Sequence record: PZ445443.1
DNA length: 64,000 nucleotides
Strand: one strand, 5' to 3'
From: a phage
Part shown: positions 22,957 through 61,202 of the stretch, one piece after another
How positions within the stretch are numbered: the stretch's first letter is position 1
Layout: each line of letters starts with the position of its first letter
Notes under the pieces: generated by a model
The model's input: the letters and a program-made list of their open reading frames with translations, nothing else
Told to the model about the DNA's origin: nothing
Databases searched by the model: none
Position numbers and translations under genes: made by a program

Positions 22957-23226
22957 ATGTTATACCAGCAATATGAACTTCGTGCAGAAAAAGAGTTAAA
23001 TTTTGACAAAGATATTCACAGATATTATTATGGGAAAGTTAGAGGGCAAGCAAGAAAGTGTACTCCAACACTCTTTTATGCCAGCAGACGACTAGCGCCA
23101 GAAGAGGCAACAGCAGAAAGGGTTGCGTACAACTGGAGAGTCACGTATGATATTGACAGATCCGATGTGATATCTGTTTTGGAAAACTTTGAAAACACTT
23201 ACACACAAGTAGAGGACTTTTACTAA
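22957..23226 (+). CDS. hypothetical protein (89 aa)
   Basis: ORF track; RBS AAGGAG. Confidence 0.5.
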   Translation: MLYQQYELRAEKELNFDKDIHRYYYGKVRGQARKCTPTLFYASRRLAPEEATAERVAYNWRVTYDIDRSDVISVLENFENTYTQVEDFY

Positions 23227-24410
23227 TGTCAAGAAACGTATTCGAAAGTGGTCAAATCACTGTCCGTGAGTTGCCAGCTATTATTCAGTTTGCCCAACGT
23301 CATAGCCGATCTGTCCTAATTTTGGGACCAATGGGTGTGGGTAAAAGCCAGGTGATGAAGCAGATCGCTGATAATATGTTCGGTGAGCGAGATGACAACC
23401 TTGTTGACGTGCGACTGTCAGATAAAGATCCTGCCGACTTATCTGGGCTACCTATCCCTGTAGAGGCGGATGGAACTACACGTACAGTGTTTGCAATTCC
23501 AGAATTTTGGCCTGCGGATCCTGACTGGAGCGGAATTATCTTTCTGGATGAGCTCACTCATGCAGATAACTACCTGCAAAAGGTTGCAATGCAAATTATG
23601 CTTGACCACAAGTGCGGTACCTATGCATTCCCTAAGGGTTCTGTTTTTGTGGCTGCTGGTAACCGTTCTACAGATGGTGCGGTTCTTTCGGCGCTCGAAG
23701 CCCCTCTGGCTAACCGTTTTATCATTGTAGAGGTTACAAGCAATGCAGAGGTGTTTATTGAGGACTACGCATTCCTTAATGGGGTGCACTCCTCTGTAAT
23801 TGGATATCTGAAAAGAGTTCCATCAGCTATCGATAATTATGAGGCCATGGCTGAGATTAATTGTCCATCTTTTGCCACACCGCGATCTTGGGTTGCTGCA
23901 TCTGATATCTTGCACGATTTTGACAGCGGTATTATTTCTGACGCTATGGCCCGTGTTCTTCTGCAAGGTGCTATTGGTCACACTGCAGCGGTAGAGATCT
24001 GGACATACCACACCAAGAAACGCAATTTACCTGAAATCGGTCGGATTATGGCAGGTGGTTGCAAAGAATACGTAGGTCCTAAGCAGCCAGACATTTTGTG
24101 GATTCTTGGATCTGAAGGTTGTATCGCTATTCGTAATATGATGGAAAATGCAAGTATCTCAGACGAAGATCTTGTCAGCTGCGTGGCAAACTTCCTCGAT
24201 TTCCTTTGGGAAAACTTCAAGGACGAGAACCGAGATTTTGTATTCTCAGTCTTTATGGCGATGATGAAACCTAATGCCTTAGGAAATGCCTTGCTTATCG
24301 GCAAAGGGCGTGACAAGATTGTTGCTCAGCTGATCAAAGCATACCCAAACCTGATGAAGATTGTAAAAGAGTTTGGTGAAGAGTTTAGCGCCATTTTGGC
24401 TAAAGCTTAA
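23226..24410 (+). CDS. AAA+ ATPase (MoxR/CobS-like)
   Basis: Walker A GPMGVGKS; Walker B-like IIFLDELTHAD; size and organisation typical of MoxR-type ATPases that pair with VWA proteins. Confidence 0.7.
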   Translation: MSRNVFESGQITVRELPAIIQFAQRHSRSVLILGPMGVGKSQVMKQIADNMFGERDDNLVDVRLSDKDPADLSGLPIPVEADGTTRTVFAIPEFWPADPDWSGIIFLDELTHADNYLQKVAMQIMLDHKCGTYAFPKGSVFVAAGNRSTDGAVLSALEAPLANRFIIVEVTSNAEVFIEDYAFLNGVHSSVIGYLKRVPSAIDNYEAMAEINCPSFATPRSWVAASDILHDFDSGIISDAMARVLLQGAIGHTAAVEIWTYHTKKRNLPEIGRIMAGGCKEYVGPKQPDILWILGSEGCIAIRNMMENASISDEDLVSCVANFLDFLWENFKDENRDFVFSVFMAMMKPNALGNALLIGKGRDKIVAQLIKAYPNLMKIVKEFGEEFSAILAKA

Positions 24411-24419
24411 GGGGGTTGT

Positions 24420-24800
24420 ATGGCTAAAGTAGGTAAGCGGGGAAACTACCTGGTGGTATTGACCGAGGAGCCGGAGAAGGAGTACGAATGCAGCTCCACT
24501 TGCGTGATCGATATCCGAGAAAAAGATGTAGATGAAATCTGGTTTAAAATATTGGACGCTTGCGACAGCAGTGATTATTTCTTCATCTATGTCAACGATA
24601 AGGCTGGGTTCTTCCATGACGACGGAGAGTTGCCGTATGAAATCTATGAACTTGTAGAGGCTTGCCATCGTGGAGATGCGGAGTTGTTTGGCTTACGGCT
24701 GAAAAGCGGTAAATTCTTCTATCAAGATGAGTGCATGAATCTTCATAACTTTGTAGAGGGAACTTGCAACGATGGAGAGATTTTGGCACACTACGATTAA
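24420..24800 (+). CDS. hypothetical protein (126 aa)
   Basis: ORF track; RBS AAGGGGG. Confidence 0.5.
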   Translation: MAKVGKRGNYLVVLTEEPEKEYECSSTCVIDIREKDVDEIWFKILDACDSSDYFFIYVNDKAGFFHDDGELPYEIYELVEACHRGDAELFGLRLKSGKFFYQDECMNLHNFVEGTCNDGEILAHYD

Positions 24801-24812
24801 TTTCTAAGACCT

Positions 24813-24841
24813 CCCCCGCTTCGGCGGGGATTTTCTATTTG
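24813..24841 (+). terminator. rho-independent terminator
   Basis: CCCCCGC-TTCG-GCGGGGG stem-loop followed by ATTTTCTATTT. Confidence 0.65.
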
Positions 24842-24849
24842 GAGTTATT

Positions 24850-25350
24850 GTGAAAATTAAGATCTTTGCTATTATTTTGAGCGCATTTTTATCGCTGCCT
24901 GTTGTTGCAGCACCAAAACAAAAAGTATACCATACTTGCAAGCCATCAGATACTAAGGAAAACATTCTAGCATGCAATATCTACAGGGAAGCTAGAGGGG
25001 ATGGCACGATGGGTATGCTGGCATCTGGGTTTGCCACCCTAAACAGGAAATCTCACCCCAAATACCCAGACACCATAAGAAAGATTGTCTACCAACCTAA
25101 CCAGTTTTCGTGGACAAACCACGGCAAAACTTTTAAGGTGACAGAAAAAGATTCATGGGATCACGCTAAAAGTCTTGCAAAGATGCTTCTAAAGGTCTAT
25201 AATAACAACCATGTTGCATACATGGCTATGGATATAACAGGTGGAGCAACACACTACCATACAACCAAAGTACGACCGAAATGGGCAAAAAAGATGCAGA
25301 GGACAGCTCAATTCGGGAGCCATATCTACTACAAGGAGCGCAATAAATGA
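24850..25350 (+). CDS. secreted cell-wall hydrolase, SleB/CwlJ-like (GTG start)
   Basis: N-terminal signal peptide MKIKIFAIILSAFLSLPVVAAP; NIYREARGDG...LNR...QPNQFSW matches SleB-type hydrolase pattern; GGAG 6 nt upstream of GTG. Confidence 0.65.
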   Translation: MKIKIFAIILSAFLSLPVVAAPKQKVYHTCKPSDTKENILACNIYREARGDGTMGMLASGFATLNRKSHPKYPDTIRKIVYQPNQFSWTNHGKTFKVTEKDSWDHAKSLAKMLLKVYNNNHVAYMAMDITGGATHYHTTKVRPKWAKKMQRTAQFGSHIYYKERNK

Positions 25351-27329
25351 TTGTAAACAGTAATGAAACTAAAGCAGTGCTAACCGGAAATATGGAGGTC
25401 ACCAGGGGCTCAATTTCTCTGAACAAAGAGACTTTTGGGCTAATCATTAAAGGGATTTACGAAGATAAGGTGCTGGCAAGCTGCCGTGAACCAATCTTCA
25501 ACGCTGTAGACTCCCATGTTGAGTCTGGACGGGGTGATGTACCGATCATCATTCACTCTCCTACAGACCTTGAACCATACTTCTTTGTGCAGGACGTTGG
25601 ATTGGGCATGTCAGAAGAGATGGTCCGCAACACGTTCATGAACCTTGGAGAGTCAACCAAGCGCAACAGTAACGCTCTGGTAGGTAATAAAGGTGTTGGT
25701 TCAAAGGCTCCGTTCAGCATGGTGGACACTTTCGATGTTATCAGTGTGCACAATGGTGTTGAAAGCACATATCTATTGTTCTTGGATCAGGGTATCCCAA
25801 ACGTTACCAAGATCCGCGAGCGGAAGACTGAAGAGCACAACGGGGTAAAAGTTCAGTTTCATGTTAAGAAAGAGCATGTCCTGAAATATCGCACTGCTAT
25901 TGCATCGTGCTTACGCTATGCGAAGTTTCCGTTCACCGTCACCGATCCCATGACCAGTAAGATGTTAGAAGGTGACAAGGTTGAGGCACAGTATCATTAC
26001 GAGAAGGATGGCTGGAAAATGACCATCCTGAAAGGTTATACCAGTTCTGATGAGAGCCGTGTTGTGATGGGTCACCAACCTTACCGCTCTAAGTTCCTGG
26101 AGACATTGACCGATTACCCTGCAATCTGCGTGGAAATTCCTATCGGGGATTGCAATATTAACCCTGGGCGTGAATGGACCATTGAGGGCCATGACGACGG
26201 TGGATTCCAGGATCGCCTGGAGGCCTTTGTTAAAGAAGGTATACGTCTTCGCGGGGCAGAAGTTGTTGCAGAACTGGAGACGGCAAAAACCTCAGCAGAA
26301 GCACGTGAAATGATGAAGAATAGTGGGGTGTTCGGACACATCTTCGGCAAAAACTTTATGTGGAACCGTTGGGAAGAAACAGGGCTTGGCGACTTAGGCG
26401 ATTGTGAAATTTTCGCTGGCGGCTTAAATAAAGGCCGCATAGGCTATGCTCGTTACGGAAAGTCGGAGTTCTTACGAGGTGTATACCTTGTATTTAACGA
26501 CGGAGACGGCAAATATAACCGAAATAAGTGTAACTACTTAAGCGAGATCACCGGACGCAACGTTTTCTATTGCCGTAACACGGATCTGGTGGAAGAGTTT
26601 AAAGAAGCGGCACACCACCCGTTCTTTGCAGATACGGTCAAATTGTTATCAGAGCTCCCTCGCCGACCTGCGAAGAAAGGTGAAACAAAAACTCATTACG
26701 AGCCAGGTTATTGGGTTAAAAAGCTTGAGAAGGATGGTTACTTCCGTCGTGAACGTATTACTAAGGCAGAGTTCAAGAAGATTAAGCACTGCATTCCTTA
26801 TGAGGGTGATATCCAACGTGGAAGTTGTTGGCTGGGACAGCTGAGTAACATCTACCAGCAAAATTATGACCGTGTGCGTGCGGCACTCCAGATTCCTGAA
26901 GGGGAAGACCTGTACCTGGTATCAGAATCCCGTCTGCTTTGGACTAATCCTGATTGCCAGTATGTTACAGAGAAAAATGTGGAACATTTGTTGAAAGAGG
27001 ACGCCTGGAAATTCTTACTGACTCGCGCAGCAAATGAAACTTCATATGACAGCCTGTATAGACAATTAGGGAAAATTATCCCCATGCAGGATTTTGGAAA
27101 TTATCGGCCACATTTCCACAAGTGGGAAGGTAACACCGCGTGGAAGCACAGTGAGCTAAATCATCGTGCCAAAATCTTAATCGCCAACCGGGTTAAGTGC
27201 GGGAAGGCCTATATTGCAAGATTGGAAAAGAAATATCCACTTTTGAAGCATGTGGGCTTGAAATATTGGGACACTCCTGCTATGATTGAATACCGTGAAC
27301 TGATCGATACAAAGAATAACATCAAATAA
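25347..27329 (+). CDS. rIIA: rIIA-like protein (GHKL-type ATPase fold)
   Basis: 660 aa; N-terminal NAVDSH...QDVGLGMS...GNKGVGSKAPF resembles T4 rIIA as recalled; adjacent to rIIB-like gene. Confidence 0.65.
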   Translation: MIVNSNETKAVLTGNMEVTRGSISLNKETFGLIIKGIYEDKVLASCREPIFNAVDSHVESGRGDVPIIIHSPTDLEPYFFVQDVGLGMSEEMVRNTFMNLGESTKRNSNALVGNKGVGSKAPFSMVDTFDVISVHNGVESTYLLFLDQGIPNVTKIRERKTEEHNGVKVQFHVKKEHVLKYRTAIASCLRYAKFPFTVTDPMTSKMLEGDKVEAQYHYEKDGWKMTILKGYTSSDESRVVMGHQPYRSKFLETLTDYPAICVEIPIGDCNINPGREWTIEGHDDGGFQDRLEAFVKEGIRLRGAEVVAELETAKTSAEAREMMKNSGVFGHIFGKNFMWNRWEETGLGDLGDCEIFAGGLNKGRIGYARYGKSEFLRGVYLVFNDGDGKYNRNKCNYLSEITGRNVFYCRNTDLVEEFKEAAHHPFFADTVKLLSELPRRPAKKGETKTHYEPGYWVKKLEKDGYFRRERITKAEFKKIKHCIPYEGDIQRGSCWLGQLSNIYQQNYDRVRAALQIPEGEDLYLVSESRLLWTNPDCQYVTEKNVEHLLKEDAWKFLLTRAANETSYDSLYRQLGKIIPMQDFGNYRPHFHKWEGNTAWKHSELNHRAKILIANRVKCGKAYIARLEKKYPLLKHVGLKYWDTPAMIEYRELIDTKNNIK

Positions 27330-27339
27330 GGAGACCAAG

Positions 27340-28545
27340 ATGATTTTCATCTACGAACATTTCAAAACTCGTAAAGAAGCACGTGACCGCCGTGCAGAAC
27401 TTGAGAAGAAGGGTTTCACATGTGCCATTGAGAAAGGCGACACAACCTGGACACTGGCAGTTGGTGCCCCAGAGTTGTTCGATCCTGACCGTGACAGCGT
27501 CTGCTACACCCGTGAGGATTTTGAAACCCGTGAAGAGGCCCGTTTATTTAGATATGGGCTGGAAGATAACGGTAAGTACGCCATGATCTTAGACTTAGGC
27601 GAAGGTTCCGTTAAACGTTGGGGCGTGGTATACCCACTGTGTGTTGTTCACGGTGTGGGGTTTACTGGGGTAGCAATCAAGTCAGAAGAACCTTTAGTAG
27701 AAGTCAAAGATCCGGTGCTGGAAGTGGTGAGCAGTGTGTCTCAGCAACAGACTCGAAGCATCGAGCCTTTGGTAGTTATTTGCGGGGAACTCCTCCAGAT
27801 CACCTGCAACGAAGGAATTTTTGAAATTCGCCGCAGCGAAAGTGAGGAAGTTTACCAGAAAGTCTTCGACCATATCTCTGTTCAGGAATATGATGAGGCA
27901 ATTGGTGAAATCCTTGTCTGGCTGGAACGCAAGAATGAGTTCACCACACTTGCAGACAACCTGATCATGAAAGATGGTAAGCTCTACTACTACGGTGTAG
28001 AGATGCGATCCACCATTGCAAAGAAAATTGAGAAAGATTATGCAGACGGAACGCTGGATGACCGCTATGTGAAATTCCTCGTTCGCCTGCTACGCAATCC
28101 TTCTGCAAAATCTGTAAACATGCTCTACGATTTTATGCAGGCCAATGATATTCAGATTGCAGAAGATGGTCGAATCATTTGCTACAAAGGGGTTCAGTTT
28201 AACGGCAGCAAGTGGGTGGATTGGCACAGTGGTAAAGTCCCACAATACCAAGGTGCTTTTGTATCCATGCCTCGTAACTTTGTAGAGGATGATCCTGAAG
28301 CTGCGTGCTCCTATGGCTTACACTGCGCCAGCAAAGAGTATGCAAAGAGCTACGGCACTGTAATGACTGTCATGGTTGACCCTGCAGATGTAGTTAGTGT
28401 GCCATATCAACACAATAGCGCTAAGTGCCGTGCATGCCGCTATGAGATTGTGGTAGCTCCGGAAGCACGCAAAGATGGAGACCCTATTGAATATGTAGTT
28501 GATCGTGACGGTAACACTATCGACATTCTTTACGAGGAGGCGTAA
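27340..28545 (+). CDS. rIIB: rIIB-like protein
   Basis: 401 aa; FLVRLLRNPSAKSVNMLYDFMQANDIQIAEDG and GLHCASKEYAKSYG...VDPADVVSVP...NSAKCRACRYEIV resemble conserved rIIB blocks as recalled; follows rIIA. Confidence 0.6.
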   Translation: MIFIYEHFKTRKEARDRRAELEKKGFTCAIEKGDTTWTLAVGAPELFDPDRDSVCYTREDFETREEARLFRYGLEDNGKYAMILDLGEGSVKRWGVVYPLCVVHGVGFTGVAIKSEEPLVEVKDPVLEVVSSVSQQQTRSIEPLVVICGELLQITCNEGIFEIRRSESEEVYQKVFDHISVQEYDEAIGEILVWLERKNEFTTLADNLIMKDGKLYYYGVEMRSTIAKKIEKDYADGTLDDRYVKFLVRLLRNPSAKSVNMLYDFMQANDIQIAEDGRIICYKGVQFNGSKWVDWHSGKVPQYQGAFVSMPRNFVEDDPEAACSYGLHCASKEYAKSYGTVMTVMVDPADVVSVPYQHNSAKCRACRYEIVVAPEARKDGDPIEYVVDRDGNTIDILYEEA

Positions 28546-29915
28546 TGGAAAAAGGGCAGTATGATGTAGGCACAGATGCTGCCCTCGTTGCAATCATGAG
28601 CGGTGAGAATGTCTTCGTTTCAGGACCTGCAGGTTGTGGGAAGACGTATCTCATCAACATGATCCAGTCAATGTATGGAGACTCTTGCATAACGGTTGCC
28701 CCGACAGGGGTAGCCGCTTTAAACGTTAATGGAGCAACAGCACACCGAACCTTCGATCTTGCAGCAGGTGTGAGCATGGAGTCAGACTGGACCGCAATAA
28801 GGGCAAAAACAGCAAAGCCTTTGAAAAGCAAGGCATTTACCATCCTAATTATCGATGAAATCTCTATGATCCGTGCTGATAAGTTTATAGAGATGGATAG
28901 GAAACTTCGCTTCCTTCGAAAAAATGACAAACCTTTCGGAGGCATACAGGTCATATTGTTTGGCGACTTTTACCAGGCACCTCCTGTTGTCTCTTCTATG
29001 GAGAAGGAAGCCTACTTCAACTTCTACCATACGGACCTGTGTTGCTATACCGAATCTTGGAAAGAGCTTGACCTCCACAACATAGCCCTAGTAGATCAGT
29101 TCCGACAGGAGTCTATTCGATTTGCCACAATGCTCAACTGTGTTCGTGAAGGTCGCCGCATAAAAGAGGTTGTAGCAGAACTTAATGCTCGCTGTTACAA
29201 AGGTGGTGTACCAACAGATGCTCTCACAATTTGCGCCACCAACAAACAAGCAGAGGAAGTGAACAGAAGGTTCTATGATGCCATCAACGCCCCAGAGAAG
29301 GTATACACTGGGGAAATGAAGGGTAAGTTTCCCTCCACCCTGCCAGTTGAGCAGGAGATGAAGTTGAAAATTGGCATGAAAGTTATGATAACCGCCAACG
29401 ATGTTGACCCGACGCACAAAGTACCTTATTATGTTAACGGAACACGTGCCACAATTGTTAAATTTAAGAACAAGGCGGTGGTGGTAGAGCTTGAAGATGG
29501 AACACAGGTTGACATAGAGCAGAGGTTGTGGGAGAATAACGAGTATAAGCCCTCTCAGAGATACAACATTGCAGAAAGGAAGATGGAGAAGTTTATAGAG
29601 AGGGTGGTGATTGGGTCATACAAGCAACTTCCTCTAAAATCTGGGTACGCCGTAACATCTCATAAAAGTCAAGGACTTACGCTAGATTGTTACAACCTAG
29701 ACCTTGGAAAGAACGGAGCTTTCTCTCCTGGGATGACGTATGTTGCTTTGAGTCGAGTTAAGACAATACAAGGAATAAACTTGTTGCGTCCACTAAGAGA
29801 AGTTGACATTATTGTTGACCCGCGAGTCGTAGAGTTTTACAATACAACATTCCCTGACTTAGACAAAATTGTCAGGAAAGATTTTGAAACCAGAGCTGAA
29901 GAGGGGGACGTATGA
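28545..29915 (+). CDS. Pif1/RecD-family DNA helicase
   Basis: Walker A GPAGCGKTY; IIDEISM; FGGIQVILFGDFYQAPPV matches the Pif1 signature. Confidence 0.75.
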   Translation: MEKGQYDVGTDAALVAIMSGENVFVSGPAGCGKTYLINMIQSMYGDSCITVAPTGVAALNVNGATAHRTFDLAAGVSMESDWTAIRAKTAKPLKSKAFTILIIDEISMIRADKFIEMDRKLRFLRKNDKPFGGIQVILFGDFYQAPPVVSSMEKEAYFNFYHTDLCCYTESWKELDLHNIALVDQFRQESIRFATMLNCVREGRRIKEVVAELNARCYKGGVPTDALTICATNKQAEEVNRRFYDAINAPEKVYTGEMKGKFPSTLPVEQEMKLKIGMKVMITANDVDPTHKVPYYVNGTRATIVKFKNKAVVVELEDGTQVDIEQRLWENNEYKPSQRYNIAERKMEKFIERVVIGSYKQLPLKSGYAVTSHKSQGLTLDCYNLDLGKNGAFSPGMTYVALSRVKTIQGINLLRPLREVDIIVDPRVVEFYNTTFPDLDKIVRKDFETRAEEGDV

Positions 29916-52378: not shown

Positions 52379-52759
52379 ATGAAAAACACCACCAAGGCCA
52401 TTGACACCGTTATGTTTAACCTGGTTACATTCCGTGAAGATATGAAAGATCTTCCACGTGAAACAGTGTGCGACCATATCGAAAACTATCGCAAACTTAT
52501 TAAAGAATTGCCATTGAAACGAGATCAGTACGCGGCTAACGCCATGCTTAACGCCATGATCAAAAAGATGATTCAGTGTGATTTAACTCTGGCCTATGAT
52601 TATGCAGGTGGTCGTTTTGCAGTATACAATCAGCCCGTGCCTGGTATGAGCACCACCGAAGAATTGCACGCGCTCAATCTAAAACAAGATGTGTGGGATA
52701 GTATGCCCCGCGTGGTGGTATGGGTAGAAAGCGGAAAGATTTACGGCGATAATTTTTAA
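52379..52759 (+). CDS. early protein (126 aa)
   Basis: ATG 52379 with AAGAGGA upstream (track start 52343 lacks RBS). Confidence 0.5.
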   Translation: MKNTTKAIDTVMFNLVTFREDMKDLPRETVCDHIENYRKLIKELPLKRDQYAANAMLNAMIKKMIQCDLTLAYDYAGGRFAVYNQPVPGMSTTEELHALNLKQDVWDSMPRVVVWVESGKIYGDNF

Positions 52760-52770
52760 TCAGGTAACAG

Positions 52771-52798
52771 GCGGCGGCATATTTGCCGCCTTATTGTT
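52771..52798 (+). terminator. rho-independent terminator
   Basis: GGCGGC-atattt-GCCGCC followed by TTATTGTT. Confidence 0.55.
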
Positions 52799-52826
52799 AA
52801 TCAGAACTGTAAAAGAGGTACATAGA

Positions 52827-53198
52827 ATGGAATTTATCATTTTGGCTATATTAGTTGCCTTGTTTAACGCCTGGATCGCTGGCAAGATGGGTAGATCCGC
52901 CTTTTTATGGTTTATTATATCTATCTTCCTGGGAGTGGTTGCAACTATTGTATTGGTTATCCTTGCAATTGTTGACAAGGGGAATAATAGAAAGGGTAAA
53001 GTATTTTCAGACCTGTACGACGCTCAAACGTTTGTCAACGCCTATTATAGTGATCTTCCAGTCTCCCTACGTTGCAGCCTTGCACAACAGGTTTTCGATG
53101 AAGCTAAAACCAGAGATCACGCCCATGAGATTTGTTTAACTGAGGCGGATCGCCTATTTGAGAGGAATAGAAAATATGTGGACCAGCCGTTTAAATAA
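52827..53198 (+). CDS. early membrane protein (123 aa, two predicted TM helices)
   Basis: ATG 52827 with AAGAGG upstream; MEFIILAILVALFNAWIAG...FLWFIISIFLGVVATIVLVILAIV. Confidence 0.5.
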   Translation: MEFIILAILVALFNAWIAGKMGRSAFLWFIISIFLGVVATIVLVILAIVDKGNNRKGKVFSDLYDAQTFVNAYYSDLPVSLRCSLAQQVFDEAKTRDHAHEICLTEADRLFERNRKYVDQPFK

Positions 53199-57835: not shown

Positions 57836-57902
57836 TACAACAAGTTACATGGTCAGGGGGGCAATAAAGCCCCTTGATCGCATGAAAATTATGCTATCTC
57901 TG

Positions 57903-57931
57903 GTTGACAGGGATCGGCAGTTTTGCTATAT
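57903..57931 (+). promoter_or_regulatory. sigma70-type promoter
   Basis: TTGACA (57903-57908), 17-nt spacer, TATATT (57926-57931). Confidence 0.55.
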
Positions 57932-57981
57932 TCTTTTTTAAAGGGAAGTTGTAAGAAAATTAACTAAGAGGTAAAAACACC

Positions 57982-58401
57982 ATGAATATTAAATCTGATA
58001 ATCCGGCATATAGCTTTGATAACGCTTTTTGTCACGGTCCGGCGGCGAAAGGTTTTGAAATTGATGGTAAACTAGTTATTGTCAATGTTGACGGGGAAGA
58101 GGTTGCAGTGTATCCGGTGGCAGACGTTAAAAGCCGTTTACAATGCCGCATCGATGTTACCGCATATCAGCTTGATCCGGTCCGCGTAGTCTCCCTGGTC
58201 CTGGAGGAAGAAATCAAAGCAATGCACCACAGCAATAAGTTTATCGGTGACGCGCAAGATAATATGAAGGTATGCCGCTATAAAGTTAATGAAGTGCTTA
58301 AAGAATATGGATTTAAGGATCTGATGATCAAACGTGATGAAAAATTTCGTTATCGTAACGACCTGGCAAATCGAATCTATGAAATATACGAATCATTATA
58401 A
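57982..58401 (+). CDS. early protein (139 aa)
   Basis: ORF track; RBS AAGAGG. Confidence 0.55.
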   Translation: MNIKSDNPAYSFDNAFCHGPAAKGFEIDGKLVIVNVDGEEVAVYPVADVKSRLQCRIDVTAYQLDPVRVVSLVLEEEIKAMHHSNKFIGDAQDNMKVCRYKVNEVLKEYGFKDLMIKRDEKFRYRNDLANRIYEIYESL

Positions 58402-58420
58402 TTTTTTAACTGAATTATCA

Positions 58421-58445
58421 AGGGGCTTAGGCCCCTTTCTTTTTG
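58421..58445 (+). terminator. rho-independent terminator closing the early cluster
   Basis: AGGGGC-ttag-GCCCCT followed by TTCTTTTT. Confidence 0.65.
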
Positions 58446-59039
58446 TCTGCTCTTCCCCTACCATAAACGGCCATACATGGCAAGTGGAATAATTGACGAG
58501 CCATCAATCCCACACACTGTACAAATATACATGTAAAATAACTATTGCATAACTTTTCATTGTGTGGTAGCAGGGCCATTTTTACACGTTTTTCCTTCCA
58601 AAATTGCACGTAATGCAGCATTTGCACAAAATTTAACCTGATGCATATCTTCAATAGCTTGTCAACAACTAAAAATCTTTATAAGTCATACACTTACATA
58701 ACTACAAAAGCGTTTTCTACGTGAAAAATCGAGTATAACTATAGCCGCCAGACCTCAGAATTTACGTACGCTCGACATTCTATAGCCTGCTAAGCATTTA
58801 TTCCAACCATAGAATAACGGAATAGTCAATACCTGCATAAAATAATTATTCGTGTAAACTGCATAACATAAATCGGCCCAGGTGTCAACATTTTTCGTAA
58901 ACAGTCCGAAATTATCACTATGAGTTATCATAAACAGGGAAATCTTTAGTCGTCTAATGTTTACTGTACATTACTATACTGACTGGAATCATTAGATGAC
59001 TAAGAGAAAGATAAGAAATAATTAACAATACAATTATTT

Positions 59040-59345
59040 TATCTGTAACAATAAGGCAACTATGCAAACGAATGGCATGGCGCGACGGAGTCGCGACATA
59101 ATATAAAAGCAGTAACCATCACCCCCGTGATAGTTTGTCTGCAAACTATTAATCAGATCATAGTTGCCTTGTATTTAGTTAATCATGACATAACAAGCAA
59201 GGCAACTATAGATCTGCTAATAGTTGCCCTGCTTTTATATTATGTCATAGAAACACCCGAAGGGGTGACCAAAGGTCACCTGGCATGGCCAGTGAAAGAT
59301 TATTAACTTGCTAATAGTTATCATGCAAACGAATGGCATGGCTGA
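59040..59345. repeat. palindrome-rich segment bounded by a 20-bp direct repeat
   Basis: ATGCAAACGAATGGCATGGC at 59062-59081 and 59323-59342; palindromes CGCGACggaGTCGCG, GATAGTTTGtctgCAAACTATT, GGCAACTAT...ATAGTTGCC, GGTGACCaaaGGTCACC; long-range inverted repeat GACATAATATAAAAGCAG / CTGCTTTTATATTATGTC. Confidence 0.45.
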
Positions 59346-59350
59346 TTATC

Positions 59351-59490
59351 GGTGTGTAAACAGTCAATCATGTAAATGGTTAGCATGTGAACAATCAGGA
59401 ATGTAAACAATCCAGTGTGTAAACTAATAGGTGTGTAAAAGTGTCATGTTGTGTCAGTTAGGTCACATTATGTCATATTGTGTCAGACAA
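59351..59490. repeat. iteron-like array of TGTAAAC / TGTCA(G/T) short repeats
   Basis: GTGTGTAAACAG, CATGTAAATGG, CATGTGAACAA, AATGTAAACAA, GTGTGTAAACTA, GTGTGTAAAAG at ~16-bp spacing, then TGTCAT/TGTCAG repeats. Confidence 0.45.
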
Positions 59491-60012
59491 GTTTTTCTCC
59501 TCTTTGTCAAGTGCTGCATGAAAAATTTACAATCTGGTATGGTAGCATTTTTGCGGCCCTGTTTACATTCAGGGGTGTATGTATAATCCTTGTTGTGTGG
59601 GCGTTTAGACGTCTGGACGGTCAGAAGTCTGCAGGTTAATATCTAATCTATTGGCTGCTAACTATATCCCACACAAATAGTAAGAAATATGATTGTTATA
59701 TGCGTAAACTGTAACTCATGTTATCAATCCCTGTATGTATCGCCAGTGGTGCGCATAATGGGTATTATGTTAAATTGCCCGTAATGATAAAGGTTCTCAC
59801 AATGATAGGTATTCTCATTCACCCCCACAAAATAGATTGCAAATGTTGTGCCACTGTGTGAACGGCCTAGCCTATTAATTTGCCTCACTGCCTCGATATT
59901 TGAGAATTGTTATAAGAATGAGAAGTATTCCCATTTCGTCCGCCTGGCAGCACTCCTGTAGGTCAGGTCAAAATCGTGGTAGAACTGGACCTGTTCAGAT
60001 ATTTCTGGCTGA

Positions 60013-61202
60013 CTCTTCAGGTCTGTGTGGGAAAAGCCAACCTCTCCGGCGGGGCAGGGGATAGGTCAATTAAAAAATTTACGTGGTGTATGAAGCGCTC
60101 TTCAGGTAAGGCAGGTATTATGGGATGAAACCCTCTTCAGGCAATGATATTTGTGGGTGTGATATTTGCTGGAAAGCCAGATATGACGGGACTCCCGGCG
60201 GGGCAGGGGTGGTACAGACAGGGAAAATATGAAGGATGTGGTTGGGTAGATTGATCAGACAGGTAGAGTATGGAATATGTTACAAGTATGTTAAATATGG
60301 AGGTTGAATATCTGTAGGATTTGTGTGTAAAATCAAAGACTTAAGTGGTGTTGTGGTATTTTCTATAAATAATTCAAGTTTAATAGGTGATATTTGTCTC
60401 TATCCGCTTTGTGTGGTAAACAGATTCAGATGAGATTGGTTTACAAGTGTATACATAATATACAAATTAAAGATACAAGAAACCCCCCTCCCCCTTCGGC
60501 TACCATTCACCTTTTCCTCTGACTGGTACTTAAACACTTATTCAGACTCTTCAGGTTATCACCTATATATCATATGGCAGTGACTGGTGTCCTCCGGCCC
60601 CTCTTTCGTCACCCGTCCGCTTCGCCATGCTAATGCCATAGCCAATGGTTCGGTTGTTCACCCTGTTCACTCAGGTGTATCTCCATACCCCTTCAAACCG
60701 AAGAGAACAGAAAACCCGAATTACTCGGTAAAAGAAAAGAGAAGAACTTAATTTTATCAGGATAGGCAAGAATGTCAAGGCATGACTGCTCACTAAACAA
60801 GCAAACAGTCATGTGTGGGAGGTAAGTGATTGTGGTGGTAGGAAATTTAGTTGAAAGATGTGTTATAGGTGCTTCCAGCACTTTAGCCGGGCAGCTAATT
60901 GTGTGTCAGTCCAGCGGTTCATCCTCTACTTCACTGAAATCAATGTTCATGGTCTCCTCCCAACCATCGATCTCAGCACAAGAGTGGAGTTCTTTAGGGT
61001 TTACTCCCAAAGCCTCAGCAACAGAGTCTATATTTAACACCTCTGGCAGGTATGATTCATCAAATTCAAGGTAAATCAGGCCACGAGTGTTGTCAGCCCC
61101 ACCAAATATTTCTATCTTCATGAAATCTCCTCTGGAAATGAGAGTGTGAACAGGGTTTTATGCGTTCCAATACGCTGGAATTATACACGTTTGCCTCTTC
61201 AG
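60013..61202. repeat. dispersed CTCTTCAGG 9-mers (5 copies) and two copies of CTC(C)CGGCGGGGCAGGGG
   Basis: CTCTTCAGG at 60013, 60098, 60133, 60547, 61194; CCGGCGGGGCAGGGG at 60046-60060 and 60195-60209. Confidence 0.4.
60906..61121 (-). CDS. hypothetical acidic small protein (71 aa)
   Basis: ORF track; ATG 61121 with GAGGAG 6 nt upstream. Confidence 0.5.
   Translation of the reverse strand: MKIEIFGGADNTRGLIYLEFDESYLPEVLNIDSVAEALGVNPKELHSCAEIDGWEETMNIDFSEVEDEPLD

What the first reader, a model, noticed from the sequence alone, without database searches (positions are those of the whole stretch)
24850..25350. Signal-peptide SleB-like cell-wall hydrolase inside the replication module
A SleB/CwlJ-type hydrolase motif with a cleavable N-terminal signal peptide sits between an unknown ORF and rIIA, far from any holin/spanin-like cassette in this window. 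A Sec-exported peptidoglycan hydrolase may act as a holin-independent endolysin or a periplasmic remodelling enzyme.
Basis: partly seen in the sequence, partly recalled or inferred. Interest (0 to 1): 0.45.

Follow-up and report, generated by a model that had tools for sequence, protein, structure and literature searches.

The report
Secreted SleB-like phage wall hydrolase
This gene of an rV5-like E. coli phage encodes a small cell-wall-cutting enzyme carrying an export signal; it is already annotated and described in relatives, and transposon data from a sister phage show it is dispensable while the ordinary endolysin is essential, so it is an accessory enzyme and not a new route to lysis.

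Summary
Window 24850-25350 (+) is a 166-aa ORF (GTG start, GGAG Shine-Dalgarno) with a classical Sec signal peptide (MKIKIFAIILSAFLSLPVVA|AP) and a Hydrolase_2/SleB-type catalytic domain with the catalytic Glu (E47). It lies between an unknown ORF and rIIA, whose ATG overlaps its stop codon (ATGA).

The window is Escherichia phage RudolfGeigy (Bas52, Vequintavirus). The gene is bas52_0065, 'putative cell wall hydrolase', the ortholog of rV5 gene 2 (annotated 2013). The signal peptide, the conservation across Vequintavirinae and toxicity in E. coli were reported for the CB7 homolog in 2020. A signal-peptide Hydrolase_2 enzyme of Aeromonas phage ASG01 lyses E. coli without a holin.

The 'holin-independent endolysin' reading does not hold as the phage's lysis route. 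The genome also encodes a cytoplasmic lambda-R-type endolysin and spanins. In a transposon library of phage Bas54, whose ortholog is 165/166 identical, that endolysin and the spanins take no insertions, while the SleB-like gene is non-essential (32 of 36 TA sites hit).

Best reading: a low-expressed, exported, accessory peptidoglycan hydrolase. My minor additions are a conserved terminator hairpin just upstream, frequent non-ATG starts, and conserved linkage to rIIA-rIIB-helicase.

Verdict: already known, low interest.

The parts
24814..24839 (+). Intrinsic-terminator-like hairpin (CCCCGC-TTCG-GCGGGG) followed by ATTTTCTATT. It ends about 10 nt before the Shine-Dalgarno sequence of the hydrolase gene.
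   Evidence: Terminator scan and RNA fold. A GC hairpin plus U-tract occupies the same position, with different stem sequences, in six other lineages: L014, L017, KpS8, Hena1, CR9 and PAK_P4.
24841..24844 (+). Shine-Dalgarno GGAG, 5 nt before the GTG start
   Evidence: Sequence read directly
24850..25350 (+). CDS of the exported SleB-like (Hydrolase_2) peptidoglycan hydrolase, 166 aa, GTG start, TGA stop. It is bas52_0065 and the ortholog of rV5 gene 2 and bas54_0065.
24850..24909 (+). Signal peptide, residues 1-20 (MKIKIFAIILSAFLSLPVVA), with predicted SPase I cleavage after A20
   Evidence: Rule-based n/h/c analysis and low pLDDT with no secondary structure. Orthologs have different sequences with the same n-h-c layout and an AXA-type site.
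24910..25347 (+). Mature periplasmic enzyme, residues 21-166 (SleB-type catalytic domain)
   Evidence: Pfam match to residues 51-161, SleB alignment over residues 38-160, fold match
24988..24990 (+). Codon of E47, the predicted catalytic glutamate (YREARGD motif)
   Evidence: Aligned with the Glu of SleB YGESRGE. Invariant in 12 diverse homologs.
24937..24975 (+). Span from the codon of C30 (24937-24939) to the codon of C42 (24973-24975). This Cys pair is conserved in the Vequintavirinae/Stephanstirmvirinae clade and is a candidate periplasmic disulfide.
   Evidence: Alignments. The T5-like/ASG01 clade has a different pair, at E-8 and E+30. Proximity of C30 and C42 in the model was not measured.
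25175..25203 (+). Sigma-70-like promoter match (TTGCAA-17-TATAAT) inside the hydrolase gene, 144 nt upstream of rIIA. It may be an independent rIIA promoter.
   Evidence: Consensus scan only; no functional evidence
25347..25350 (+). ATGA overlap: the rIIA start codon overlaps the hydrolase stop codon, an arrangement typical of translational coupling
   Evidence: Sequence
25347..28545 (+). rIIA (25347-27329) and rIIB (27340-28545), the conserved downstream partners; the helicase follows at 28545
   Evidence: PHROG 612 and 609. The same order, hydrolase-(small ORF)-rIIA-rIIB-helicase, is found in KpS8 and Hena1.

Best explanation
The gene encodes a small single-domain peptidoglycan hydrolase of the Hydrolase_2 (SleB catalytic domain) family.

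Inferred mechanism:
- It is made as a pre-protein, exported by the Sec pathway, and cut by signal peptidase I after Ala20.
- It then acts as a soluble periplasmic enzyme on the glycan strands of the host sacculus, using Glu47. By analogy with SleB it is probably a lytic transglycosylase.

Role in the phage: it is an accessory enzyme, not the lysis effector. Vequintaviruses lyse with a cytoplasmic lambda-R-type endolysin plus spanins, which are essential. This gene is dispensable for plaque formation on E. coli K-12.

Inferred expression: the gene sits in the rightward early/DNA-metabolism arm. It follows a terminator hairpin directly, has no promoter of its own, starts with GTG, and overlaps rIIA by ATGA. 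I infer low-level expression by read-through together with rIIA/rIIB. That level would be low enough not to lyse the cell prematurely, yet enough to nick or loosen the wall. The likely benefit is faster or more complete lysis, or a gain under conditions or on hosts not covered by laboratory plating.

Shown: the domain, the fold, the conserved Glu, the signal-peptide features, the gene order, and non-essentiality of a 99%-identical ortholog.

Inferred: export and cleavage, the bond cleaved, expression level and timing, and the biological benefit.
For: Identity and fold. E47, R49, N65, R66, W145, H158 and Y161 are invariant among 12 diverse homologs.

Signal peptide:
- One search gives the rule-based features.
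- Orthologs in Mydovirus, Certrevirus, Henunavirus, Justusliebigvirus, Phapecoctavirus and Tequintavirus have leaders of unrelated sequence with the same n-h-c layout and an AXA-type site.
- A leader is also present in an 81%-identical and an 83%-identical metagenomic ortholog.
- Almost all of the best 150 of 11,334 cluster representatives start with a hydrophobic leader.
- Clade-specific Cys pairs fit an oxidising compartment (PMC10975977).

Accessory role:
- bas54_0065 is non-essential, while the endolysin bas54_0202 and the spanins take no insertions. The orthologs are 165/166 identical.
- The canonical endolysin is lambda-R-like. Its rV5-like ortholog LysECP26 has been purified and is active (PMC9728275).

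Muralytic potential of exported Hydrolase_2 enzymes:
- ASG01 Cwh lyses E. coli without a holin, and point mutants lose activity.
- CB7_83 is toxic in E. coli.

Expression architecture:
- Terminator hairpin.
- Non-ATG start in 6 of 10 lineages, against 13 of 115 genes in this phage.
- ATGA overlap.
- No T4-like late motif or sigma-70 match between the hairpin and the start.
Against: - No signal-peptide predictor such as SignalP was available. Cleavage and export are inferred from rules and conservation.
[quoted passage not shown] In that record the gene is annotated only as hypothetical, and it is unclear whether it was examined.
- SleB itself needs muramic-delta-lactam, which E. coli lacks, so the substrate and the bond cleaved are unknown for the phage enzymes.
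- Strict conservation in all 115 Vequintavirus records shows selection for a function that laboratory essentiality data do not reveal.
- No transcript data exist for this phage. A terminator upstream could mean a unit boundary with an unrecognised promoter rather than attenuation.
- Insertion mutants of bas54_0065 are relatively abundant: mean 916 reads against about 150-420 for neighbours. This could mean a small cost of the gene in the laboratory, or only insertion bias.
Confidence: 0.75

Rival explanations
1. It is the phage's holin-independent, Sec-exported endolysin. It reaches the wall on its own and is what lyses the cell.
For: - A signal peptide plus a muralytic domain.
- The ASG01 Cwh homolog lyses E. 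coli when expressed alone.
- CB7_83 is toxic.
- Hydrolase_2 is annotated as the endolysin in Pakpunavirus, Mendera and Aeromonas phages.
- The annotated 'putative holin' of Bas54 is non-essential.
Against: - In Bas54 the lambda-R-type endolysin and both spanins tolerate no insertions even though the SleB-like gene is intact.
- The SleB-like gene itself is non-essential.
- The gene sits behind a terminator, has a GTG start, and lies in the early arm.
Confidence: 0.04
2. The N-terminus is not cleaved. It acts as a signal-anchor-release (SAR) or permanent membrane anchor, so the enzyme is held inactive at the inner membrane until the membrane is depolarised at lysis.
For: - Many Gram-negative phage lysins with predicted signal peptides are SAR lysins (PMC8223927).
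- The PAK_P4 and Aeromonas 2L372X homologs have uncharged or acidic hydrophobic N-termini without a basic n-region, which look like anchors.
- Tethering would explain why early expression is tolerated.
Against: - The h-region is strongly hydrophobic and has no Gly, whereas SAR domains are rich in Gly, Ala and Ser.
- It is only 12 residues up to a helix-breaking Pro.
- It is followed by a textbook V-V-A|A site.
- The same AXA-type site is kept in orthologs whose leader sequence has otherwise diverged.
Confidence: 0.1
3. It is an early envelope-modifying factor working with rIIA/rIIB. By trimming or altering peptidoglycan it may exclude superinfecting phages, counter an envelope-linked host defence, or adapt the phage to particular hosts or growth states. 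It would be conditionally, not generally, required.
For: - Linkage hydrolase-(small membrane ORF)-rIIA-rIIB-helicase is conserved in three genera, and the gene overlaps rIIA by ATGA here.
- The gene is universally retained in 115 Vequintavirus records although dispensable in the laboratory.
- The neighbouring MoxR ATPase is an anti-defence gene in Bas54.
- Phi92-like homologs have their own sigma-70-type promoter.
Against: - It was not conditionally essential in the clinical-isolate comparison held in the supplement (log2FC -0.88, adjusted p = 1).
- The gene has no rII neighbour in Certrevirus, phi92-like or T5-like phages.
- There is no direct evidence for any exclusion or anti-defence phenotype.
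Confidence: 0.12
4. It is a catalytically dead peptidoglycan-binding protein or a virion-associated lysin, not a free periplasmic enzyme.
For: Other wall-hydrolase-like genes of this phage lie in the tail module (bas52_0022 and bas52_0029). No enzymatic assay exists for this protein.
Against: - The catalytic Glu and the surrounding motif are invariant.
- A Sec signal peptide is incompatible with assembly into cytoplasmic virions.
- The gene lies far from the structural module.
- Homologs are lytic or toxic when expressed.
Confidence: 0.02

Closest known systems
rV5 gene 2 product and Bas54 bas54_0065 (Vequintavirus 'cell wall hydrolase')
   Same: Orthologs. They have 166 aa, carry PF07486, and lie immediately upstream of and overlapping rIIA. 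bas54_0065 is 165/166 identical.
   Different: Nothing of substance; there is one conservative F13L change in the leader. This is the same gene in sister phages.
CB7_83 of Pectobacterium phage CB7, and CR3_087 and CR9 gp095 (Certrevirus SleB-like protein)
   Same: The same subfamily-wide gene (CR9 is 51% identical), with a signal peptide, reported toxic in E. coli, and located upstream of the helicase.
   Different: Certreviruses lack rIIA/rIIB. Their hydrolase gene is instead overlapped by a small membrane-protein ORF proposed to be a class II holin. No such ORF exists in this window.
Cwh of Aeromonas phage ASG01 (Hydrolase_2 with a 23-aa signal peptide)
   Same: A single Hydrolase_2 domain behind a Sec-type signal peptide. 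Expression alone lyses E. coli, and mutating the conserved Glu or Cys reduces activity.
   Different: There it is presented as the phage's only lysin. Its Cys pair (C34/C72, that is E-8/E+30) is the T5-like pattern, not the C30/C42 pattern seen here.
SleB catalytic domain of Bacillus cereus / B. anthracis (PDB 4F55, 4FET)
   Same: The same fold and the same catalytic Glu motif. SleB is a lytic transglycosylase.
   Different: - About 21-24% identity.
- No N-terminal peptidoglycan-binding domain.
- TIGR02869 score of 48 bits against a cut-off of 236.5.
- SleB needs muramic-delta-lactam of the spore cortex and the partner YpeB; neither applies to E. coli.
T5-like 'cell wall hydrolase SleB' (AKFV33 ORF81; IrisVonRoten bas32_0074)
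   Same: A second, signal-peptide-bearing Hydrolase_2 gene in the early region of a virulent coliphage that has a separate holin-endolysin pair. It is 40% identical over residues 34-162.
   Different: Shorter (149 aa), a different Cys pair, an ATG start, and no rII neighbours.
Secretory (signal-peptide) endolysins such as Lys44 of Oenococcus phage fOg44
   Same: A concept in which a phage muralytic enzyme is exported by Sec independently of a holin (cited in PMC10975977; otherwise my own knowledge).
   Different: Those are the phages' sole endolysins in Gram-positive hosts. Here a canonical cytoplasmic endolysin does the essential job.

Membership tests
Pfam Hydrolase_2 (PF07486) cell wall hydrolases | Profile score above the curated gathering threshold | tested here: met
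   70.4 bits against a cut-off of 27, E 2.1e-19, covering profile positions 2-100 of 100
Pfam Hydrolase_2 (PF07486) cell wall hydrolases | SleB-type catalytic-domain fold | tested here: met
   AF2 model with pLDDT 88.5. The only significant PDB matches are 4F55 and 4FET, prob 1.00, target TM-score 0.73-0.78.
Pfam Hydrolase_2 (PF07486) cell wall hydrolases | Catalytic glutamate in the Y-x-E-[AS]-R-G motif | tested here: met
   E47 in YREARGD aligns with the Glu of SleB YGESRGE and is invariant in 12 homologs
Pfam Hydrolase_2 (PF07486) cell wall hydrolases | Peptidoglycan-degrading activity | not testable with these tools
   Only indirect evidence: a homolog lyses E. coli and a homolog is toxic
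Spore cortex-lytic enzyme SleB proper (NCBIfam TIGR02869 equivalog) | Full-length match above the equivalog cut-off | tested here: not met
   48.3 bits against a cut-off of 236.5. Only profile positions 83-201, the catalytic half, match.
Spore cortex-lytic enzyme SleB proper (NCBIfam TIGR02869 equivalog) | N-terminal peptidoglycan-binding domain | tested here: not met
   No second Pfam domain. Residues 21-37 are a short linker.
Spore cortex-lytic enzyme SleB proper (NCBIfam TIGR02869 equivalog) | Specificity for muramic-delta-lactam and dependence on YpeB | not testable with these tools
   The host is E. coli, which makes no cortex peptidoglycan. This rests on established knowledge.
Sec signal-peptide (secretory) phage endolysins | N-terminal n-h-c signal peptide with an SPase I site | tested here: met
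   Rule-based analysis: K2/K4, a 12-residue h-core, P17, and VVA|A. The layout is conserved across diverged orthologs. No dedicated predictor was available.
Sec signal-peptide (secretory) phage endolysins | Export and cleavage demonstrated | not testable with these tools
   Needs PhoA fusions, fractionation or N-terminal sequencing
Sec signal-peptide (secretory) phage endolysins | It is the enzyme that the phage needs for host lysis | tested here: not met
   Published transposon data for the 165/166-identical ortholog show it is non-essential, while the lambda-R-type endolysin takes no insertions
SAR (signal-anchor-release) endolysins | Weakly hydrophobic, Gly/Ala/Ser-rich N-terminal transmembrane domain without a cleavage site | tested here: not met
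   No Gly in residues 1-22, a Kyte-Doolittle mean of 2.61, and a well-formed AXA-type site
SAR (signal-anchor-release) endolysins | Release from the membrane on depolarisation, usually with a pinholin partner | not testable with these tools
   No adjacent small membrane ORF in this window. Such ORFs follow the gene in KpS8, Hena1 and CR9.

The most novel reading that the evidence does not exclude
The exported SleB-like enzyme may not be a spare lysin. It could be one component of a conserved early 'envelope module' with rIIA/rIIB, and in sister genera with a small membrane protein. In that reading its expression is deliberately throttled by a terminator and a weak start codon, and it is translationally tied to rIIA. 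It would remodel peptidoglycan early in infection, for example to exclude superinfecting phages, to counter an envelope-linked defence, or to prime the sacculus. The 'membrane integrity protector' role of rII would then be functionally connected to a phage-made periplasmic hydrolase.
Probability: 0.1. Interest if true: 0.5.

Novelty: already known. Interest (0 to 1): 0.15.

Why it matters
As it stands this matters little. The gene is annotated in the source record and its signal peptide is published for relatives. A genome-wide transposon screen of a sister phage already shows it is dispensable, whereas the conventional endolysin is essential.

The residual question is of modest interest to phage-lysis specialists. 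Several large virulent coliphage groups (rV5-like, phi92-like, T5-like) strictly keep a second, Sec-exported muralytic enzyme in their early regions, and it is not known why. It is also not known how its expression is kept below the lytic threshold. The enzyme class may have some value as a self-exporting lysin for engineered autolysis.

Tried and rejected
- **Main endolysin:** rejected on the Bas54 transposon data and the presence of a lambda-R-type endolysin.
- **Lipoprotein:** rejected; there is no lipobox, and C30 is preceded by Y-H-T.
- **SAR domain:** judged unlikely from composition and the cleavage site.
- **Conserved holin-like neighbour:**
  - The annotated downstream ORFs in CR9, ECGD1, the T5-like phage, PAK_P4 and Aeromonas 2L372X are not membrane proteins.
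  - Small membrane ORFs do follow the gene in KpS8, Hena1 and CR9, but not in this window.
- **Co-inheritance of the upstream ORF (rV5 gp3, said in 2013 to resemble T5.083) with the hydrolase in T5-like phages:** no match within 4 kb of the T5-like gene, and no non-Vequintavirus hit at E <= 1e-5.
- **The 111-aa 'truncated' relative P0003 as evidence of gene decay:** rejected. The gene caller missed the GTG start and the full leader is intact.
- **Known RNA families around the gene:** none; the only hit was a chance snoRNA match at E 0.36.
- **Compositional sign of recent transfer:** GC is 41-43% against 44-48% nearby, which is not striking.
- **Word-indexed protein search:** it returned only 10 relatives. 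The exhaustive search gave 11,334.
- **Distance between C30 and C42 in the model:** could not be measured because no coordinates are returned.
- **A second transposon preprint:** it had nothing on this phage group.

Full report
**What the window is.** Window 23000-28600 is 100% identical to Escherichia phage RudolfGeigy (Bas52, MZ501102.1; Vequintavirus, the rV5-like phages). Record coordinates equal window coordinates plus 33954. The flagged ORF is the annotated CDS bas52_0065, 'putative cell wall hydrolase'.

- The ORF at 24850-25350 (+) has 166 codons. It starts with GTG, 5 nt after a GGAG Shine-Dalgarno sequence.
- It matches Pfam Hydrolase_2 (PF07486) at E 2.1e-19, 70 bits against a threshold of 27, and PHROG 938 'endolysin'.
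- It aligns with the crystallised SleB catalytic domains 4F55 and 4FET. Its YREARGD motif lies on SleB's YGESRGE, which places the catalytic Glu at E47.
- An AlphaFold2 model (mean pLDDT 88.5; residues 1-20 low-confidence and unstructured) finds only the SleB catalytic domains as significant PDB neighbours (prob 1.00, target TM-score 0.73-0.78).
- E47 is invariant in a 12-sequence alignment spanning seven phage lineages.

**The signal peptide.**
- The N-terminus MKIKIFAIILSAFLSLPVVA|APKQK has two lysines and a 12-residue strongly hydrophobic core.
- It has Pro at -4 and Val-Val-Ala at -3 to -1. There is no Gly and no lipobox.
- Orthologs in KpS8, CR9, Hena1, ECGD1, vB_EcoM_01 and T5-like phages have leaders of unrelated sequence. 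All keep the same layout and an AXA-type site.
- So do 81%- and 83%-identical metagenomic orthologs.
- Nearly all of the best 150 of 11,334 family representatives begin with a hydrophobic leader.
- I had no dedicated predictor, so export and cleavage remain inferences. They are strong ones.

**Not SleB itself.** The protein scores 48 bits against the SleB equivalog model, whose cut-off is 236.5. It matches only the catalytic half and lacks SleB's peptidoglycan-binding domain. It works like the SleB catalytic domain. It is a member of the Hydrolase_2 family, but it is not a SleB ortholog.

**Surroundings.**
- Upstream lie a MoxR-type ATPase (23226-24410) and an unknown ORF (24420-24800).
- Downstream, rIIA starts on the hydrolase's stop codon (ATGA at 25347-25350). 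rIIB, a RecD-like helicase, primase and DNA polymerase follow.
- 'Inside the replication module' is therefore roughly right. More exactly, the gene heads the rIIA-rIIB-helicase block of the rightward early arm.
- Elsewhere the genome has a complete conventional lysis set. Its endolysin is 162 aa, has no hydrophobic N-terminus, and matches lambda lysozyme 1AM7 at E 2.9e-49.
- The set also includes an i-/o-spanin pair and an annotated two-TMD 'putative holin' at window 52534-52905.

**What is already published.**
- rV5 gene 2 was annotated as a 166-aa Hydrolase_2 cell wall hydrolase next to rIIA in 2013.
- The CB7 paper states that SleB-like homologs occur in all Vequintavirinae genera, carry a signal peptide and are toxic when expressed in E. 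coli. It adds that CR3_087 was implicated in lysis.
- The BME3 paper says that these phages, like PVP-SE1, encode two endolysins, one being a SleB homolog in the regulatory/replication module.
- T5-like phages are likewise known to carry a SleB-type gene in the early region, far from their holin and endolysin.
- A Hydrolase_2 protein with a 23-aa signal peptide from Aeromonas phage ASG01 lyses E. coli on its own. It loses activity on mutation of conserved residues.
- Hydrolase_2 is listed among the dominant catalytic domains of Gram-negative phage lysins.

**The decisive functional evidence.** The HIDEN-SEQ preprint mapped transposon insertions across Bas54, which is phage MaxBurger (locus tags confirmed). 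Its hydrolase is 165/166 identical to the window's.
- bas54_0065 is classed non-essential, with 32 of 36 TA sites hit and a mean of 916 reads.
- rIIA and rIIB are non-essential.
- The lambda-R-type endolysin bas54_0202 has 0 reads at 24 sites and is essential.
- Both spanins have 0 reads and are essential.
- The gene was also not conditionally required in the clinical-isolate comparison held in the supplement (log2FC -0.88, adjusted p = 1).
- The rV5-like endolysin itself has been purified and shown to be active (LysECP26).
- So the exported enzyme cannot replace the ordinary endolysin and is not needed for plaque formation. It is an accessory.

**What I can add.**
- A GC-rich hairpin with a U-tract ends about 10 nt before the gene's Shine-Dalgarno sequence. 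It occurs in RudolfGeigy, two diverged metagenomic Vequintavirus-like contigs, KpS8, Hena1, CR9 and even Pakpunavirus PAK_P4.
- The stems differ: CCCCGC/GCGGGG, CCCCCT/AGGGGG, CCCCC/GGGGG, GCCCC/GGGGC, AGCCCCT/AGGGGCT, GGCTCAG/CTGGGCC and AGCCCGCC/GGCGGGCT. This pattern speaks for a conserved structure.
- No sigma-70-like site lies between the hairpin and the start.
- The start codon is GTG or TTG in 6 of 10 lineages examined, against 13 of 115 genes in this phage. The lineages are not all independent and annotated starts can be wrong, so this is only suggestive.
- The order hydrolase-(small membrane ORF)-rIIA-rIIB-helicase is kept in Mydovirus and Henunavirus. Certrevirus, which lacks rII, keeps hydrolase-(overlapping membrane ORF)-helicase.
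- Phi92-like homologs have their own sigma-70-type promoter.
- Together these features suggest early or middle, deliberately weak expression. That is plausible for an enzyme that kills when over-expressed. It is inference; no transcript data were available.

**Verdict.** The sequence observation is confirmed, and the domain and export assignments are sound. The proposed role as a holin-independent endolysin is not supported for this phage group. The thing is already known.

**Open question.** It remains unclear what selective benefit keeps this dispensable exported hydrolase in every one of 115 Vequintavirus records and in phi92-like and T5-like phages.

Noticed in passing
window 57852-60383: A gene-free gap of about 2.5 kb between the two oppositely transcribed arms. 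Its core is AT-rich (GC 34-39% at 58300-59600). It carries iteron-like ATAGTTGCC(C/T)TG copies in direct and inverted orientation (59046-59330) and a perfect 18-nt inverted repeat (59095-59112 / 59229-59246). No tRNA was found. The HIDEN-SEQ preprint reports that the equivalent Bas54 gap tolerates no transposon insertions. It is probably a replication origin or another essential cis element.
   Followed up: partly
window 52534-52905: The annotated two-TMD 'putative holin' (bas52_0114) has an ortholog in Bas54 that is non-essential (mean 430 insertion reads), while the endolysin and spanins are essential. The real holin of Vequintaviruses therefore seems still unidentified.
   Followed up: partly
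window 23226-24410: The MoxR-type AAA ATPase two genes upstream is the ortholog of bas54_0063. HIDEN-SEQ found bas54_0063 to be required specifically against a predicted defence system (DS-28) of a clinical E. coli strain. The helicase after rIIB was also depleted there.
   Followed up: no
L004 4536-4691 (KpS8); L005 4450-4713 (CR9); L011 5511-5744 (Hena1 gp155): Small hydrophobic ORFs follow the hydrolase gene directly in sister genera. They are unannotated in KpS8 and CR9; in CR9 the ORF overlaps the hydrolase stop by ATGA. The CB7 paper proposed the equivalent ORF as a class II holin and listed CR9 as an exception, but an ORF is present there.
   Followed up: partly
L014 2770-3336 (metagenomic contig): Gene callers that miss the GTG start truncate the hydrolase to 111 aa. 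That removes the signal peptide and the catalytic Glu (protein P0003, also present in an NCBI record). The full ORF is intact.
   Followed up: yes
whole window (one search hit list): Sixteen GenBank records named 'Campylobacter phage' (MG0656xx, host C. jejuni, unannotated) are about 98% identical to this E. coli Vequintavirus. They look mislabelled or derived from contaminating coliphage.
   Followed up: no
bas54_0065 in supplement 9 of 10.1101/2025.11.20.689424 (ortholog of window 24850-25350): Insertion mutants of the hydrolase are unusually abundant in the reference library: mean 916 reads against roughly 150-420 for its neighbours. This could reflect a slight cost of the gene in laboratory culture, or merely insertion or amplification bias.
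   Followed up: no
window 25175-25203: A good sigma-70 consensus match (TTGCAA-17-TATAAT) lies inside the hydrolase gene, 144 nt upstream of rIIA. It could give rIIA/rIIB transcription independent of the hydrolase.
   Followed up: no
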